A stretch of 64,000 nt of DNA, from IMG/VR virus record IMGVR_UViG_3300037010_001838, one strand, 5' to 3'. Shown piece after piece: positions 3,365-23,024 of the stretch. This stretch comes from a virus. Taxonomy: Duplodnaviria > Caudoviricetes. The translations under genes and the position numbers were made by a program. The stretch's first letter is position 1. Each line of letters begins with the position of its first letter. The notes beneath the pieces were generated by a model that worked only from the letters and a program-made list of their open reading frames with translations, was not told the DNA's origin and did no database searches.

Positions 3365-3438
3365 GCTCAATTGGCTTAATGGTAAAGCAGGTGCTTCTAA
3401 AACACTTGACCGTCGGTTCGATTCCGACATTGGGCACC
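3365..3438 (+). tRNA. amber suppressor tRNA (CUA anticodon)
   Basis: acceptor GCTCAAT/ATTGGGC, D stem GCTT/AAGC, loop TT-CTA-AA (3395-3401) with a C31-A39 mismatch, T arm GTCGG-TTCGATT-CCGAC. Confidence 0.75.
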
Positions 3439-4139: not shown

Positions 4140-5190
4140 AGTATTAAGAAAGTCACTCTTTTAATTAGTTCTGTGAATTCAGAACGTTTCATCAGAAACA
4201 ATTTAAAAGATAAAGAATTACGCGCTTGTGCAAAGTAACCAACAGCGATGTTGTGAAAGCGGTAGGTCCTACAACTACCGCGCCCTGTAAGGGGTACAAA
4301 CAAGCAAGCCTGACCTACTCCGAAAGGAGCTGATTATCGCCAACGGTAGTCATATGAGGGAAGTTAGGGGTGTGGAAAGAACGAATGTTTACAAGCCTGC
4401 TCTGCAGGGAACTTGGGCATTTGGAGAGTAACGGGTTGTGCCGACCTCACGCCTACACAAACTAGCCATCTCAAAAGGTAAAGGGTAGTACAGTGGTCCG
4501 AACCCGCAAGTAAGGGCTGTTGTGCAAGTTGAGGGGGTTTTGGTACCTGTAATAGGGTGTCACGATTCCTGAAAACTGGTTGAGTAGTCGGCAGATGAAA
4601 AACATGAGGAGTGTGGTATTTTTATACTCAAAAGGTATGAAATCCACTGGAAACGCACTTCTTGGTAGGTTTAACAATGTTAGGGTTAACAGCCCATATA
4701 AATTTGGATTATATTACATAAAACGCAAAGACGTTTCCAGTGTAAAGTGAAAATGGCTTAATCCTTCAGCCGCAAGGTAATGAAGGCGTCCAAAACTCGC
4801 AAGGTCGAGGATGTTGAAAGAAAGTCGCACGCAGAGAGTTAGCGCTCTTGTACAGCTCGCAAGGTTGGCGGTAGACAGATAATCGAGTAGCTTTACATGT
4901 TGGTGGAAAAGCAACCACTTAAAAAATGCAGTCATGTTGATAGACATAGTTGTGCGAAAGCTGATTATGTGGATAAGAGAAGAACTCTAGCTGTAGCAGG
5001 TGATGAGATAATGTCTCGAAGGTATCAATAGTATAGGTTTAATCTCAACCTTATACAAAGTAAATGCCTCGATTGGGGTGTCTGCTTTAAACAATCTGTG
5101 TAGAACCTCCCTTGTAAAAGGGGTTAGAGAGTTGGTAATGTAGATTGTTTAAAGCAGACTTATGAACTGCCACTTTGAAAAAAGAGAGTA
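4140..5190 (+). ncRNA. large ornate ncRNA candidate (GOLLD/ROOL-like class)
   Basis: ~1 kb without a credible ORF, raised GC, many GNRA-capped hairpins, perfect 18-bp (5080-5097/5142-5159) and 11-bp (4645-4655/4732-4742) helices, next to tRNAs; boundaries approximate. Confidence 0.65.
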
Positions 5191-5307
5191 CACGCTCTTG
5201 ATAAATCGTGTCAATGGGCCAGACCATTGGGAAAAATTTTCCGATAACTGCGAATAATATCGTTGATTTTTGATTTTAATCACCGTAAAATGTCTTTATT
5301 GAAGTTT

Positions 5308-5407
5308 GAGACACATATAGCAAACCAAAATTCTGCGCTTCACGGCGCACATTGGAGTGTGATCCACTTAAAACATCGGCTGATTGGACCTTCCAGTTGG
5401 TGTCTCG
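5308..5407 (+). ncRNA. stem-ACAGCAA family RNA copy E0
   Basis: GAGACAC-ATATAGCAA...GTGTCTC-G terminal helix with internal hairpins. Confidence 0.55.
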
Positions 5408-5417
5408 TAAAAAGTTT

Positions 5418-5574
5418 AAGACGCACACAGCAATCTTTTGACTTTGAGAAGTTGTGGAGAATCTGGGAAGTGGAGGAGCTTGCTCTTGTGAAGCTTCCCA
5501 GTGGAGACTACAACAAAAACGTGCTACCGTGTTTCAATACGGTAGGTGTTGACCGAGCTTCGGTTGGCGTCTTG
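5418..5574 (+). ncRNA. stem-ACAGCAA family RNA copy E1
   Basis: AAGACGC-ACACAGCAA...GCGTCTT-G terminal helix with several internal hairpins. Confidence 0.6.
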
Positions 5575-5597
5575 TTAAATTAACGAAAAGGATCAAA

Positions 5598-5819
5598 ATG
5601 ACTACCAAAAAAGCAAAGAAAGATCAAGCAGTTGCAGTGATTATTGGAAAACCCAACCGGCATTTTAAGTTACCAGGATCAATTAAGCGTGTGATGGTTT
5701 CAATTGAAGATAAGCATGCACGTGGAGCATATAAACGTGCTATGATTTCAGCTGAATTGACATACCAAGCAAACAAAAAGAAGCGTGTTGAACGAACTGA
5801 TACTAGTAAAGATGAATAA
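5598..5819 (+). CDS. small basic hypothetical protein
   Basis: 73 aa, AAAGGA RBS, Lys/Arg-rich. Confidence 0.7.
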   Translation: MTTKKAKKDQAVAVIIGKPNRHFKLPGSIKRVMVSIEDKHARGAYKRAMISAELTYQANKKKRVERTDTSKDE

Positions 5820-6043
5820 TGGATTCTCAACCAGTTATTAATTTTAACACCGTATTGGTGGAAATTTCAAAACTGGAACTTAATCCAGGTGATGTTTTAG
5901 TCATAAAAGTTCATGACGATTCTCTATTTAAGAAGAGTAACATAATAGAAATTTCGAACGCACTTGACAAAGCGTTGCCTAAAGACGTAAAAGCAGTTAT
6001 AGTTCCATCACAATATGAATTTCAAGTTATAAGAAATCTTTAA
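5819..6043 (+). CDS. hypothetical protein
   Basis: 74-aa ORF overlapping the upstream stop. Confidence 0.6.
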   Translation: MDSQPVINFNTVLVEISKLELNPGDVLVIKVHDDSLFKKSNIIEISNALDKALPKDVKAVIVPSQYEFQVIRNL

Positions 6044-6050
6044 TAGTTTA

Positions 6051-6113
6051 AAGACACTAACAGCAATCGCATAATACATTAGACATTTAATCTAACCAGT
6101 AAAATGTGTCTTG
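6051..6113 (+). ncRNA. stem-ACAGCAA family RNA copy E2
   Basis: AAGACAC-TAACAGCAA...GTGTCTT-G directly before the RBS of the TROVE-like gene. Confidence 0.6.
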
Positions 6114-6129
6114 ATAAAAGGAGAAACAA

Positions 6130-7632
6130 GTGAGCAAAGAATTTGTGGATGCCCTTTCTATTACAACCAATGTAGCGCACACGGAAAATGGTGCTGTTGC
6201 ATTTGATACAACCAAATCAGCTATGTTGGATTTGTTTGCACAAGGGGGTGCACTCCGCAATCGTGCTGATGATGAAATTCTTCGTTTGTTTTCAAAAGCT
6301 TATGCAGAAAATGCATTGTTTGCCACTCGTGCTATGTTCTATTTCAGGGACGCTCGTGGTGGTCAAGGTGAACGCGATACATTTAGAAAGCAATTAAAGT
6401 GGTTGATTAACGTTAACCCTGACGCTGTCCGTAAAAACATTAAACTTATTCCATACTTTGGACGTTGGGATGATTTGTATGTGTTATTTGATACAGAACT
6501 TGAAACAGATGCAATTACACTAATCTTTACACAGATTGCCGAAGACACGGCATCTGAACATCCCTCGTTGCTTGCAAAATGGTTGAAAAGTGAAAACGCT
6601 TCTTCAAAAGAAACGAAACGACTTGCAACAAAAACTCGTATAGGTCTTAAATTAAGTTCCAAAGCATATCGCTTGATGTTGAGCACTCTTCGTAAGAAAA
6701 TTAACATCGTTGAACGGTTGGTGTCTGCCAATCAGTGGGATAGTATTGAATACAGTGCCGTTCCTTCTCAAGCTAACTTGTTATATGGGAAAGCTTTCTT
6801 CACGCATGACGCTGAACGCCGTAAGAAATTCTTGGATTCTTTAAAGACTGGCGAAAAGAAAATCAATGCGAGTGTTCTTTTTCCATATGAAATCGTCCAT
6901 AAAGCACTTACGGTGGGCAGGAACACACCACAACACGAACGCCAACTCATAGATGCGTTGTGGGACGCTCTTCCAAACTATATTGGAGATAAACAAGAAA
7001 ATGCTCTTGCTGTAGTTGATGTGTCTGGTTCTATGGCTGGTCTTCCATTGGAAGTTGCTATTTCGGTTGGAATGTATTTGGCTGAACGTAACACTTGTGA
7101 AGCTTATCATAACAAGTTCATTACTTTTAGCTCTACACCTCAACTACTTAAAATTCAGGGAGCTGACCTTGTTGAAAAAATAGCTAATATGAATAGTTCT
7201 GCATGGGAAATGAATACAGATATTCAAGCTGTGTTCCGTTTGATTCTTACTGTTGCCAAACAAAACAAGTTAGCACAATCTGAATTACCACAGAAGTTGT
7301 ATATCATTTCTGATATGGAATTTGATGCCGCTATAAGCAACGCTAGATATTCTTATAAGAATCAATGTCGGGGTGTGGTTGACGAAAAATTTTTCCAAAC
7401 AATTTCTAAAGAATTTAGTGAGTGTGGATATACAATGCCCAATTTGGTGTTTTGGAATGTTGATGCTCGGAACCAACAGTTTCCAATGAGTATGGATGAG
7501 CGTGGTTTTCAAATGGTTAGTGGATGTAGTCCGTCTATCTTTAAGCACACAATAGGTGGAGAATTTATGTCTGCTTATGATTTGATGCTTGATGTTATTA
7601 ACAGTGAACGTTATCAACTCGTTACAATTTAA
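6130..7632 (+). CDS. TROVE/Ro60-related vWA protein (DUF2828-like)
   Basis: TENGA, RDARGGQGER and vWA MIDAS VVDVSGSM motifs; ISDMEFD; FWNV. Confidence 0.85.
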   Translation: MSKEFVDALSITTNVAHTENGAVAFDTTKSAMLDLFAQGGALRNRADDEILRLFSKAYAENALFATRAMFYFRDARGGQGERDTFRKQLKWLINVNPDAVRKNIKLIPYFGRWDDLYVLFDTELETDAITLIFTQIAEDTASEHPSLLAKWLKSENASSKETKRLATKTRIGLKLSSKAYRLMLSTLRKKINIVERLVSANQWDSIEYSAVPSQANLLYGKAFFTHDAERRKKFLDSLKTGEKKINASVLFPYEIVHKALTVGRNTPQHERQLIDALWDALPNYIGDKQENALAVVDVSGSMAGLPLEVAISVGMYLAERNTCEAYHNKFITFSSTPQLLKIQGADLVEKIANMNSSAWEMNTDIQAVFRLILTVAKQNKLAQSELPQKLYIISDMEFDAAISNARYSYKNQCRGVVDEKFFQTISKEFSECGYTMPNLVFWNVDARNQQFPMSMDERGFQMVSGCSPSIFKHTIGGEFMSAYDLMLDVINSERYQLVTI

Positions 7633-7635
7633 CTT

Positions 7636-8001
7636 TTGAAATATAATATGAGTAAATATACACCAGATTGTTGGGTTAAGGTCAAATTCACAAATGATGA
7701 ATTTGGAGAAATAGAAAAGATTTTTGCAGGTTGGTATGGTGGATACCTTAATGGTGACAGTTGGAAGTTAAGTTCAGGTATTACACAACAAGAAGAATTC
7801 GATGACCGTTATGAATTTACAAATTCTTCTGGTTCCGTGTATGTTTGTTATAAGGGGTCTGAACGTATGAGTGGTATAATGGGTAGTGTGTATGCGTCAT
7901 TTGCGGAACAGATTCGAGAAGCAAATGAAAAAAACTCAACGAACAAAACTTTAATGGAAATTATTCCTGTAACAGGAGATGGCGATGTTGTAACGAGTTA
8001 A
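7636..8001 (+). CDS. conserved phage hypothetical protein
   Basis: YTPDCWV...KIFAGWYGGYLNGDSWKLSSGI resembles a recurrent T4-like phage ORF. Confidence 0.7.
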   Translation: MKYNMSKYTPDCWVKVKFTNDEFGEIEKIFAGWYGGYLNGDSWKLSSGITQQEEFDDRYEFTNSSGSVYVCYKGSERMSGIMGSVYASFAEQIREANEKNSTNKTLMEIIPVTGDGDVVTS

Positions 8002-8383: not shown

Positions 8384-9172
8384 ATGAAATTTCTTATTCA
8401 ACACAATTTAATGGATAAAGAACAACTTCAGTTAACAAAAGCTGCTGTTGAACAATACCCACATGAATTTGTTGGATTAATTCCTTTCTCTCGAGAAATA
8501 ACTTCAACCGAACCATTAACAGGAACCAAATACATTCCTTATGGTTCAACACTATTAACAAACCTTGCTTATGAATTAAAATGGGAAGGTCTCTATTTTG
8601 ATTTAGCTAAATTCAATTACGAAGCTGCTGCATCCAACCGTGACGATATGATGAATGCACAGTTCATTAAACCATTGAACGTGACGATTGAGTTTTTACA
8701 CACGAGACCAGATAACGAACTTTGGTTTATTCGTCCTTCAGAAGATCTGAAACAATTTTCTGGACAAATTATTGAAGCGAAAGAATGTAGAGAATGGCTC
8801 AAAGATGCAATGGAATGTGACATGTCTGGTACTTATAAAATGGAACCGGAAACGATGATTGTTCTTGCTGAACCACAGACGATTCAAGCTGAATGGCGTT
8901 GGTTTGTTGTTGGAGGGGAAATTGTTGACGGTTCCATGTACCGTGCAAATGGACAATTAATTAAAAATCATGAAACGGAAACTGGCGTTATAAAAGAAGC
9001 ACAAAAATTCGCCGATAAATGGGTACCAAGTCCGTGTTGTGTTATGGACACAGCTCTTGTCGATGACAAAATAAAGGTTATAGAATTTAACTGTATTAAC
9101 TCATCAGGTTTTTACAATCATAACGTATCAAAAATATTTTCAGCCTTATATGATTACTCAATCAATCGTTGA
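8384..9172 (+). CDS. ATP-grasp domain protein (DUF4343/R2K-like)
   Basis: FIRPSEDLKQFSG, EWRWFVVGGEIV, VMD, VIEFNCINSSGFY. Confidence 0.8.
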   Translation: MKFLIQHNLMDKEQLQLTKAAVEQYPHEFVGLIPFSREITSTEPLTGTKYIPYGSTLLTNLAYELKWEGLYFDLAKFNYEAAASNRDDMMNAQFIKPLNVTIEFLHTRPDNELWFIRPSEDLKQFSGQIIEAKECREWLKDAMECDMSGTYKMEPETMIVLAEPQTIQAEWRWFVVGGEIVDGSMYRANGQLIKNHETETGVIKEAQKFADKWVPSPCCVMDTALVDDKIKVIEFNCINSSGFYNHNVSKIFSALYDYSINR

Positions 9173-20386: not shown

Positions 20387-20443
20387 AAGACACTAACAGC
20401 AACTCAAAAAACTTTCTATGCTAAGGAAACTAAACGTGTCTTG
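20387..20443 (+). ncRNA. stem-ACAGCAA family RNA copy E3
   Basis: AAGACAC-TAACAGCAA...GTGTCTT-G directly after a TTGACT/TAAAAT promoter. Confidence 0.6.
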
Positions 20444-22918: not shown

Positions 22919-22995
22919 GGTGATGTGGGTGAAAAGGTAATACCGCCTTGCTCATAACGAGGAACATTCCAGTTCGATTCTGGACATCACCACCA
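22919..22995 (+). tRNA. tRNA-Met/Ile2(CAU)
   Basis: loop CT-CAT-AA, paired G1:C72, CCA. Confidence 0.9.
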
Positions 22996-23024
22996 AGACA
23001 TTAAAACGCAAAAAACGTGTCTTG
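22995..23024 (+). ncRNA. minimal or degenerate stem-ACAGCAA copy E4
   Basis: AAGACAT-TAAAACGCAA-AAAAC-GTGTCTT-G between two tRNAs. Confidence 0.35.

What the first reader, a model, noticed from the sequence alone, without database searches (positions are those of the whole stretch)
5308..6113. Family of stem-ACAGCAA RNAs in an operon with a TROVE/Ro60-like protein
Four clear copies (5308, 5418, 6051, 20387) and one minimal copy (22995) share an upstream AGTTT (clear copies), a 7-bp terminal helix (A/G)AGAC(A/G)C...G(T/C)GTCT(T/C)G, and an adjacent unpaired A(C/T)AGCAA. The helix shows a compensatory A-T/G-C change, and the interiors vary in length. Three copies are upstream of the TROVE/vWA gene in one apparent transcript. 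KNOWN: bacterial Ro60 (Rsr) binds a terminal helix of adjacent-encoded Y RNAs and is linked to RNA repair. INFERENCE: these are a distinct Y-RNA-like class of ligands for this protein.
Basis: partly seen in the sequence, partly recalled or inferred. Interest (0 to 1): 0.72.

Follow-up and report, generated by a model that had tools for sequence, protein, structure and literature searches.

The report
Partner RNAs of phage Ro60-like protein
Four small folded RNA genes in this giant phage belong to a widespread RNA family, absent from Rfam and the papers I searched, that occurs together with a ring-shaped Ro60-like protein in phages and bacteria and is most likely that protein's RNA partner.

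Summary
Observation confirmed. Four units (5308-5407, 5418-5574, 6051-6113, 20387-20443, + strand) share a 7-bp terminal helix, an unpaired (C/U)AGCAA after the 5' arm and a G after the 3' arm. The fifth, "minimal" copy (22995) lacks the motif and is not supported.

The family is real and widespread. A covariance model built here gave 136 hits beside DUF2828 genes in 88 viral loci, all on the gene's strand. All 29 whole DUF2828 contigs searched have a hit. Starting from the RNA pattern alone, 19 of 19 near-complete viral genomes carry DUF2828. T4, T5 and two other tRNA-rich phages have neither. The family is also present in Felix O1-type, Listeria, Staphylococcus, Bacillus, Campylobacter, Enterococcus and mycobacterial phages and in bacterial assemblies.

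The protein folds like Ro60. In phage LeBron a long member carries a YrlA-like tRNA module, which links the family to Y RNAs. No Rfam family matches the window copies, and no paper found describes the family.

The handle closely matches the dictyostelid Class I RNAs (CCUUACAGCAA).

This scan has reported the same family before on other DNA (at least 86 genomes).

The parts
5263..5291 (+). sigma-70-like promoter match (TTGATT-N17-TAAAAT) ahead of copy 1; possible start of the RNA/protein transcript
   Evidence: This is a consensus match only; the count of such matches in the region equals the shuffle expectation.
5308..5407 (+). Copy 1, long form (100 nt): helix GAGACAC/GTGTCTC, variant motif UAGCAA, three internal hairpins, 3' G
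   Evidence: (19.7 bits, E 0.07). It is absent as one exact unit from the 98%-identical relative G001.
5418..5574 (+). Copy 2, long form (157 nt): helix AAGACGC/GCGTCTT, ACAGCAA, four internal hairpins, 3' G
   Evidence: (MFE -59.9 kcal/mol, z -3.56).
5598..6043 (+). Two small ORFs (73 and 74 aa) between copies 2 and 3 in the same apparent transcript; no family assigned
   Evidence: No Pfam or PHROG match.
6051..6113 (+). Copy 3, short form (63 nt): helix AAGACAC/GTGTCTT, ACAGCAA, a 5-bp hairpin with 7-nt loop CAUUUAA, an A-rich 3' strand, 3' G; it ends 17 nt before the start codon of the Ro60-like gene
   Evidence: (49.7 bits, E 2.4e-8).
6130..7632 (+). Ro60-like protein gene (500 aa; DUF2828 + DUF7788; HEAT-like ring plus vWA domain with an intact MIDAS motif)
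   Evidence: Pfam hits at 2.3e-37 and 2.9e-46. PHROG 850 'RNA-binding protein'. AF2 model with pLDDT 80.7. The top 13 PDB matches and top 5 Swiss-Prot matches are all Ro60. D297, S299, S301, T363 and D395 are invariant.
20387..20443 (+). Copy 4, short form (57 nt), 14 kb away inside the tRNA island, after tRNA-His and a TTGACT-N17-TAAAAT match; same arms as copy 3; hairpin loop AUGCUA(A)
   Evidence: (49.8 bits, E 2.3e-8).

Best explanation
These are genes for small non-coding RNAs that act as the RNA partners of the neighbouring Ro60-like (DUF2828/DUF7788) protein. They are functional analogues of Y RNAs. Each RNA has a constant 'handle'. The handle is a terminal helix whose first five pairs are sequence-constrained (N-A-G-R-Y paired with R-Y-C-U-N'), the unpaired CAGCAA that directly follows the 5' arm, and an invariant G after the 3' arm. 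Each RNA also has a variable 'cargo': one hairpin in the short forms, several hairpins or a tRNA-like module in the long forms.

Inferred mechanism: the RNAs are transcribed with the protein gene or within tRNA operons and cut out by tRNA-type processing. The ring protein grips the handle, as Ro60 grips the stem and CGAA bulge of Y RNAs. The cargo often copies an anticodon arm or a T arm. It presents a tRNA look-alike to enzymes that act on tRNA. In this reading the particle serves phage tRNA and RNA quality control, repair or counter-defence.

Shown here: the family, its structure, its linkage to the gene and the protein fold. Inferred: binding, processing and the role of the cargo.
For: 1. 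Structure. Terminal-helix pairs covary fully (A-U, U-A and G-C at pair 1; many types at pairs 5-7). In a test that did not require a helix, the 5' sequence motif occurs 183 times on the gene strand and 2 times on the other strand. Of the 183, 138 have a 7-bp complementary arm, against 32 for a reversed-arm control, and 132 of the 138 are followed by G.

2. Linkage, gene to RNA. There are 136 model hits at E<=0.01 in 88 viral DUF2828 loci, all on the gene strand. All 29 whole contigs searched have a hit. Of 97 hits, 95 are co-oriented with the gene, 34 lie within 500 nt and 71 within 10 kb, where 13% is expected for uniform placement. In bacterial assemblies there are 69 hits in 45 of 80 loci, all co-oriented.

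3. Linkage, RNA to gene. An RNA-only pattern scan of all viral contigs gave 49 contigs that could be tested. Of these, 38 carry PF11443, including 19 of 19 that are at least 90% complete. For comparison, only 711 of 50,697 cultured phage records have the protein.

4. Blind controls. T4, T5, MHG19 and BUCT695 have neither protein nor RNA. avDM12-TAAL has both.

5. Protein. It has the Ro60 fold and an intact MIDAS motif.

6. Bridge to Y RNAs. LeBron 7516-7643 has the same handle (GGACTC, tag, CAGCAA ... GAGTCC) around a tRNA-like module that Rfam YrlA matches at 39.8 bits, E 1.3e-6. The published Y RNA architecture is a 5'-3' stem flanking a large loop that holds a short protein-binding motif (PMC4201824; PMC12135203).

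7. Cargo. Of 137 interior hairpins, 53 have 7-nt loops (shuffles: mean 8, maximum 11). They fall into CUNNNAA (anticodon-loop-like) and UUCGAUU (T-loop-like) classes.

8. Context. tRNA arrays, RtcB and RNA ligase genes lie next to the gene in cultured phages.
Against: There is no binding or expression data.

CAGCAA is not the GNCGAA/CGAA motif of known Ro60 ligands, and no Rfam Y RNA model matches the window copies.

Linkage is not always tight. In phage CBB the hits lie about 205 kb from the gene, and in some contigs 10-50 kb away. Only 45 of 80 bacterial loci have a hit within 3 kb. Co-occurrence could therefore reflect a shared pathway rather than a complex.

Copy 1 has U in place of the otherwise invariant C.

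For the look-alike Class I RNAs of Dictyostelium, the one protein shown to bind directly is an RRM protein, not a Ro-like one.
Confidence: 0.75

Rival explanations
1. The RNAs are free-standing tRNA-operon RNAs that work without the Ro60-like protein. They could be stable decoys or baits that mimic anticodon or T arms, or punctuation modules that guide processing of tRNA precursors. They would co-occur with the protein only because both belong to the same tRNA-protection toolkit.
For: Many units sit between or directly against tRNA genes. Their loops resemble anticodon loops and T loops. In CBB and some contigs they lie far from the gene.
Against: Concordance with the protein is near complete in both directions. 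A third of hits lie within 500 nt of the gene, including in genomes where the gene is not in a tRNA array (SEP9, LeBron). Processing alone does not explain the invariant CAGCAA and 3' G. tRNA-rich phages without the protein lack the RNAs.
Confidence: 0.12
2. The units are cis-acting leader elements of the DUF2828 mRNA, for instance sites where the protein binds its own message to control translation, rather than separate trans-acting RNAs.
For: Copy 3 ends 17 nt before the start codon. The commonest position in other loci is directly upstream of the gene.
Against: Units also lie downstream of the gene (SEP9, LeBron, HY02, L014-L017). They occur in tandem arrays of 2-6 and inside tRNA arrays 10-200 kb away. 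Copy 4 of this window is 14 kb from the gene. This rival is compatible with the main explanation for the copy nearest the gene.
Confidence: 0.06
3. The repeats act as DNA, for example as protein-binding inverted repeats or as recombination or homing sites. Their RNA fold would be incidental.
For: A 98%-identical relative differs by the gain or loss of exactly one unit, so units do recombine.
Against: The strand bias is absolute: 136 to 0 and 69 to 0. The arms change by compensatory substitutions while their sequence drifts. The distance between the arms varies from 20 to 180 nt. The single-stranded motif is conserved on one strand only (183 against 2).
Confidence: 0.02

Closest known systems
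Ro60 (Rsr) with Y RNAs of the YrlA/YrlB type in bacteria and mycobacteriophages (Chen et al. 2014, PMC4201824; Rfam RF02553)
   Same: The RNA genes lie beside and on the same strand as a ring-shaped HEAT + vWA protein. The 5' and 3' ends pair in a terminal stem. A short conserved unpaired motif sits near the 5' end. There are short and long forms, and the long forms carry a tRNA-like module (LeBron). Neighbours include RtcB and RNA ligase genes.
   Different: The protein is DUF2828/DUF7788, not Pfam TROVE, with 12-15% identity to solved Ro60s. The motif is CAGCAA, not GNCGAA(N)G. The window copies do not match any Rfam Y RNA model. Most members are minimal, about 50-70 nt, with a single hairpin. 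They often occur in arrays and inside tRNA operons.
Thermus phage phiLo Ro60 with Yrl1/Yrl2 (PMC12135203; PDB 9KOP, 9L5Y)
   Same: A phage-encoded Ro60 homologue with RNA genes directly upstream. The RNAs have a stem, bulge, stem architecture. These are the best structural matches of the window protein.
   Different: The phiLo RNAs carry the CGAA motif. Binding and a complex with host PNPase were shown experimentally there; nothing is shown here.
Class I RNAs of dictyostelid social amoebae (Kjellin et al. 2021, PMC7919456)
   Same: They are about 60 nt long. A short (6-bp) terminal stem covaries. An unpaired 11-nt motif, CCUUACAGCAA, follows the 5' arm directly. The interior is variable and ends in an A-rich run. 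The ends are conserved: AAG at the start and CUG(U) at the end. Window copies 3 and 4 read AAGACAC-UAACAGCAA ... GUGUCUUG and meet all five near-invariant motif positions.
   Different: They are eukaryotic genes with their own DUSE promoter and were reported as unique to Dictyostelia. The known direct binder is the RRM protein Rnp1A. No link to a Ro-like protein has been reported. Common descent as opposed to convergence is not tested here.
gp130 of Escherichia phage Bas63 (PhageMaP preprint, PMC11482910)
   Same: A Ro60-like protein of a Felix O1-type phage, encoded directly upstream of the tRNA genes. The authors guessed that some 'tRNAs' might be Y RNAs. The related phage HY02 has at least four CAGCAA units between its tRNAs.
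   Different: That work reports a phenotype (countering the Ppl defence system) but identifies no partner RNA. I did not examine Bas63 itself.

Membership tests
Y RNA (Ro60-associated ncRNA; YrlA, Rfam RF02553) | Encoded within a few kb of, and on the same strand as, a Ro60-type protein gene | tested here: met
   Copies 1-3 lie 17-820 nt upstream of the gene. Family-wide, 95 of 97 hits are co-oriented and 71 of 97 lie within 10 kb.
Y RNA (Ro60-associated ncRNA; YrlA, Rfam RF02553) | The 5' and 3' ends pair in a terminal stem that flanks a large internal loop | tested here: met
   A 7-bp covarying helix.
Y RNA (Ro60-associated ncRNA; YrlA, Rfam RF02553) | Conserved GNCGAA(N0-1)G / CGAA Ro-binding motif | tested here: not met
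   The motif here is (C/U)AGCAA. It is 100% CAGCAA in 136 aligned hits, a set gathered with a model built on CAGCAA-selected seeds.
Y RNA (Ro60-associated ncRNA; YrlA, Rfam RF02553) | Match to the Rfam YrlA or Y_RNA covariance models | tested here: not met
   No match at E<=10 in window 5000-6300. A long member in LeBron matches YrlA below the gathering score (39.8 against 69 bits).
Y RNA (Ro60-associated ncRNA; YrlA, Rfam RF02553) | Physically bound by the Ro60-type protein | not testable with these tools
Ro60 / TROVE protein family | Sequence match to Pfam TROVE | tested here: not met
   Only DUF2828 and DUF7788 are reported at E<=0.01. phmmer against PDB sequences finds nothing at E<=10.
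Ro60 / TROVE protein family | Helical-repeat ring followed by a vWA domain (the Ro60 fold) | tested here: met
   The AF2 model has pLDDT 80.7. The top 13 PDB hits are all Ro60/TROVE, aligned over the full length, TM mostly 0.5-0.6 (two open-form entries 0.33 and 0.37). The top 5 Swiss-Prot hits are Ro60 of Deinococcus, frog, mouse, worm and human.
Ro60 / TROVE protein family | MIDAS motif (DxSxS...T...D) in the vWA domain | tested here: met
   D297, S299, S301, T363 and D395 are invariant in 19 homologues.
Dictyostelid Class I RNA | Short terminal stem joining the 5' and 3' ends, conserved in structure but not in sequence | tested here: met
   compared with the paper's description.
Dictyostelid Class I RNA | 11-nt motif next to the 5' arm with T3, C6, C9, A10 and A11 near-invariant (CCUUACAGCAA) | tested here: met
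   Copies 3 and 4 read ACUAACAGCAA, which meets all five positions. Copy 2 (GCACACAGCAA) meets four and copy 1 (ACAUAUAGCAA) three. Compared by eye with the paper's text and supplement.
Dictyostelid Class I RNA | Conserved ends: AAG at the start and CUGU at the end | tested here: inconclusive
   Window copies start (A/G)AGAC and end CU(U/C)G, followed by U or A. This is similar but not identical.
Dictyostelid Class I RNA | DUSE promoter about 60 nt upstream; eukaryotic transcription | tested here: not met
   This is a phage genome. A sigma-70-like match stands upstream instead.
Dictyostelid Class I RNA | Match to the published Class I covariance model | not tested
   That model and the amoeba genomes are not available in these tools.

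The most novel reading that the evidence does not exclude
The phage and bacterial CAGCAA-handle RNAs and the 'Dictyostelium-only' Class I RNAs are one ancient RNA family. Its conserved partner is the DUF2828-type Ro60-like protein, a family that also has eukaryotic members. The variable cargo displays single tRNA arms (anticodon-arm or T-arm mimics) as baits or decoys for tRNA-targeting enzymes such as anticodon nucleases. One concrete lead: the pull-down with Class I RNA DdR-21 recovered a protein of unknown function, DDB_G0281243 (bioRxiv 10.1101/2020.04.05.026054). I could not check whether it is DUF2828-like.
Probability: 0.2. Interest if true: 0.88.

Novelty: new variant of a known kind. 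Interest (0 to 1): 0.72.

Why it matters
Ro60 and Y RNA particles are a classic but still poorly understood RNA quality-control system. Phage relatives of Ro60 are widespread (711 cultured phage records; 398 loci among the prokaryote assemblies held), yet no partner RNA has been described for this branch.

Naming the RNA gives a direct handle on several questions. One is what the particle does in model phages (Felix O1-type, Listeria P100-type, Staphylococcus 6ec-type, mycobacteriophage cluster L). Another is why the protein counters a bacterial defence system. A third is why it sits in tRNA and RNA-repair islands.

The tRNA-arm-like cargo suggests a testable decoy or bait function. The near identity of the handle to the dictyostelid Class I RNAs would, if it reflects descent, overturn the view that those RNAs are unique to social amoebae and point to their missing protein partner.

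It also adds dozens of unannotated RNA genes to phage genomes. Some are currently called as spurious small ORFs; one example is 5856-5972 in the Enterococcus phage VRE9_2 locus (L218).

Tried and rejected
- Rfam at gathering score on the whole window, and at E<=10 on 5000-6300: no family matches the units.
- phmmer of the protein against PDB sequences: nothing. Only fold comparison shows the Ro60 relation.
- First DNA alignment against the close relative used wrong coordinates and was uninformative. The unit-level indel was read instead.
- Promoter scan: matches no more frequent than in shuffles, so the promoter is only a suggestion.
- 'Minimal copy' at 22995: rejected as a member.
- GOLLD as a regular neighbour of DUF2828: rejected, 0 of 19 loci.
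- Supplementary tables of Chen et al. 2014 are not held, so I could not see which phages they listed.
- Swiss-Prot fold search and the protein atlas gave no Dictyostelium DUF2828 protein. This is not informative, because organism names are hidden in the cluster library and most amoeba proteins are unreviewed.
- Complex prediction was not used because it cannot take RNA.
- Literature searches for DUF2828, Ro-like phage ncRNA and CAGCAA found no description of the family.

Full report
**What is in the window.** The window is a tRNA-rich stretch of a large uncultured phage. It has 32 tRNA genes and a full-length GOLLD RNA at 4606-5051. Downstream of GOLLD lie four units of one design, all on the + strand:
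- Copy 1: 5308-5407
- Copy 2: 5418-5574
- Copy 3: 6051-6113
- Copy 4: 20387-20443

Each unit opens with a 7-nt arm ((A/G)AGAC(A/G)C). Two or three bases follow, then (C/U)AGCAA, then a variable interior, then the complementary arm and a G. The arms differ by two compensatory changes. Copies 1-3 precede a 500-aa gene (6130-7632) with no + strand terminator match in the non-coding stretches between them. Copy 4 lies 14 kb away, after tRNA-His. The fifth, 'minimal' copy (22995-23023) is only a hairpin with similar arms. It has no CAGCAA, my model does not detect it, and such arm pairs are expected about twice per window by chance. I drop it. A 98%-identical viral contig lacks exactly copy 1, so unit number varies between close relatives.

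**Is it more than chance?** I collected 88 viral loci that encode relatives of the protein (38-95% identity). A simple descriptor was used: a stem of at least 7 bp, a linker of 0-4 nt, CAGCAA, and a 3' arm followed by G. It found 127 sites on the gene strand, 4 on the other strand and 6 in shuffled sequence. The arm sequences differ completely between phages while pairing is kept.

A covariance model (R1) built from 47 short members found 136 hits at E<=0.01 in these loci, all on the gene strand.

The seeds had been chosen for a helix, so I ran a test that did not require one. The 5' sequence motif alone occurs 183 times on the gene strand and twice on the other. Of the 183, 138 have a 7-bp complementary arm within 230 nt, against 32 for a reversed-arm control. 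Of those 138, 132 are followed by G.

The consensus from the 136 hits is:
- A (71%) before the helix
- helix N-A(92%)-G(96%)-R-Y-N-N
- a linker
- CAGCAA (about 100%)
- roughly 8 nt with almost no G
- a variable hairpin
- an A-rich run
- the 3' arm, with C-U conserved
- G (100%)

**Linkage with the protein gene.**
- Whole-contig searches: all 29 DUF2828 contigs have a hit. Of 97 hits, 95 are co-oriented with the gene, 34 lie within 500 nt and 71 within 10 kb, where 13% is expected for uniform placement.
- Reverse test: an RNA-only pattern scanned over all viral contigs gave 49 contigs that could be tested. Of these, 38 carry PF11443, including 19 of 19 that are at least 90% complete. The 11 without it are all incomplete (13-80% by CheckV), most of them under 60 kb. 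Only 711 of 50,697 cultured phage records encode the protein.
- Blind controls: five tRNA-bearing phages were picked without regard to the protein. T4, T5, Yersinia MHG19 and Aeromonas BUCT695 have neither protein nor RNA. Aeromonas avDM12-TAAL turned out to have both.
- Cultured phages with units directly beside the gene:
  - Staphylococcus SEP9: three in tandem downstream.
  - Bacillus Thrax3: three between the tRNA array and the gene, and two inside the array.
  - Listeria LMLPA3: three upstream, with RtcB and RNA ligase downstream.
  - Campylobacter F336: two upstream.
  - Enterococcus VRE9_2: one upstream, under a spurious ORF.
  - Mycobacteriophage LeBron: three downstream.
  - Felix O1-type HY02: at least four between tRNAs downstream.
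- Looser linkage: in Vibrio ValKK3 the nearest hit is 9 kb away, and in Pectobacterium CBB about 205 kb away. Physical adjacency is therefore common but not obligatory.
- Prokaryote assemblies: 398 loci encode the protein. In the best 80, there are 69 hits in 45 loci, all co-oriented and mostly just upstream of the gene.

**The protein.** Pfam sees only DUF2828 and DUF7788. PHROG 850 is labelled 'RNA-binding protein'. Sequence search of the PDB finds nothing. An AlphaFold model (pLDDT 80.7) has Ro60/TROVE structures as its 13 best PDB matches, aligned over the full length. They include Thermus phage phiLo Ro60, Xenopus and human Ro60, and Deinococcus Rsr. Its five best Swiss-Prot matches are also Ro60. 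The MIDAS residues of the vWA domain are invariant. The protein is Ro60-like by fold but is not a member of Pfam TROVE by sequence.

**Relation to Y RNAs.** Published bacterial and phage Y RNAs have a 5'-3' stem that flanks a large loop holding GNCGAA/CGAA. They lie beside Ro60 on the same strand, and YrlA carries a tRNA-like domain (PMC4201824; PMC12135203). The present RNAs share the architecture and the genomic logic, but the motif is CAGCAA. The window copies match no Rfam model.

Mycobacteriophage LeBron provides the bridge. Downstream of its 'Ro-like' gene lie a short unit, then a 128-nt unit, then another short unit. The handle of the 128-nt unit is GGACTC-tag-CAGCAA ... GAGTCC. It encloses a tRNA-like module that Rfam YrlA matches at 39.8 bits (E 1.3e-6, below the gathering score). 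The family thus includes YrlA-like long forms and many minimal short forms.

**The cargo.** I folded the interiors of 125 distinct members. Of 137 hairpins, 53 have 7-nt loops (shuffles: mean 8, maximum 11). Of these, 26 have U at loop position 2 and a purine at position 6 (shuffles: mean 1.6). The loops fall into a CUNNNAA class (anticodon-loop-like) and a UUCGAUU/UUCGAAU class (T-loop-like). In the window, copy 3 has a 5-bp stem with loop CAUUUAA, and copy 4 has loop AUGCUA(A). This agrees with a separate note on this window (e1-5376539). It suggests that the variable part presents single tRNA arms.

**Most likely mechanism.**
- Shown: a structured RNA family with a constant handle and a variable cargo, and its genomic coupling to a Ro60-fold protein.
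- Inferred, from the Ro60-Y RNA precedent: the protein binds the handle.
- Inferred, from position in tRNA operons, where units often stand within a few bases of a tRNA: the RNAs are released by tRNA-type processing.
- Inferred, from the tRNA-arm mimicry, the RtcB and RNA-ligase neighbours, and the report that the Ro60-like gp130 of Bas63 counters the Ppl defence system (PMC11482910): the particle acts in tRNA and RNA surveillance, repair or counter-defence.

I put 0.75 on 'RNA partner of the protein'. The exact activity is open.

**Rivals.**
- Free-standing tRNA-mimic or processing RNAs that merely share a pathway with the protein (0.12).
- A cis-acting leader of the mRNA (0.06; this could hold in addition for copy 3).
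- DNA-level repeats (0.02; contradicted by the absolute strand bias and the compensatory changes).

**Comparison with Class I RNAs.** Earlier notes of this scan pointed to the Class I RNAs of social amoebae, and I checked the source. The paper describes RNAs of about 60 nt. They have a 6-bp covarying terminal stem and an unpaired 11-nt motif next to the 5' arm, with T3, C6, C9, A10 and A11 near-invariant. They start with AAG and end with CUGU. Its supplement gives the motif as CCTTACAGCAA, and gives sequences such as DdR-21 with an A-rich run before the 3' arm. Window copies 3 and 4 meet all five motif positions and the overall layout. The paper reports the class as unique to Dictyostelia. Whether the likeness reflects descent is untested. 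The earlier preprint version lists the proteins pulled down with DdR-21: GuaB, NdkC, Rnp1A and DDB_G0281243, which has unknown function. I could not check the last one.

**Novelty.** The units match no family in Rfam 15, and none of the papers I could search describes them. This scan has reported the same family before on other DNA: 90 findings in at least 86 genomes. My tests are independent of those notes except for the Class I lead. I class it as a new variant of a known kind (Ro60/Y-RNA-type particles).

**Limits.** E-values from the short-calibrated model are rough. Seeds were chosen with a helix requirement, which mitigate.

Noticed in passing
window 4606-5051 (+): Full-length GOLLD RNA (RF02032, 198.8 bits) lies directly upstream of the RNA/protein operon. 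GOLLD is not a regular neighbour of DUF2828 genes: 0 of 19 other loci have it within 3 kb.
   Followed up: partly
window 3365-3438 (+): tRNA with a CUA anticodon (amber suppressor; ARAGORN calls it tRNA-Pyl) in a phage that otherwise reads with the standard code.
   Followed up: no
window 22995-23023 (+): Hairpin CAAGACA...TGTCTTG starting at the CCA end of tRNA-Met. It shares the arm sequence of the family but lacks CAGCAA. It could be a remnant, a processing hairpin or chance.
   Followed up: yes
window 5302-5411 against G001:C1:48337-48358: The 98%-identical relative lacks exactly one unit (copy 1). The indel is bounded by the repeated AAGTTT(A/G)AGAC, which indicates unit gain or loss by recombination between neighbouring units.
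   Followed up: partly
L212 (Mycobacterium phage LeBron) 7448-7703: Three units follow the 'Ro-like' gp53 gene. The middle one (7516-7643) carries a tRNA-like module that Rfam YrlA matches below threshold. A terminator follows at about 7716-7750.
   Followed up: yes
L021 2651-2778; L036 2316-2702; L026 5609-5732; L042 266-414: Rfam tRNA matches of 117-149 nt (tRNAs with large inserts) lie next to CAGCAA units. They may be further long-form members with tRNA-like cargo, or intron-bearing tRNAs.
   Followed up: no
G044:C1:134505-136408 and G057:C1:73545-75118: In two complete viral genomes the DUF2828 match is split between a short N-terminal ORF (131 and 163 aa) and a separate longer ORF about 1.3 kb away. 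The gene may be interrupted (intron, intein or homing endonuclease) or broken.
   Followed up: no
L027 7129-7212; L045 928-1316: A skipping-rope RNA (RF02924, 75 bits) and a phage-borne tmRNA (RF00023) lie within 3 kb of DUF2828 genes in two viral contigs.
   Followed up: no
window 8384-9172 (+): An R2K-clade ATP-grasp protein (PF14243/PF18299; PHROG 7313, function unknown) is encoded 0.75 kb downstream of the Ro60-like gene, after a tRNA-Ser.
   Followed up: no
L218 (Enterococcus phage VRE9_2) 5856-5972: An annotated 'hypothetical protein' ORF overlaps a CAGCAA unit (5883-5954) and is probably a spurious call over an RNA gene.
   Followed up: partly
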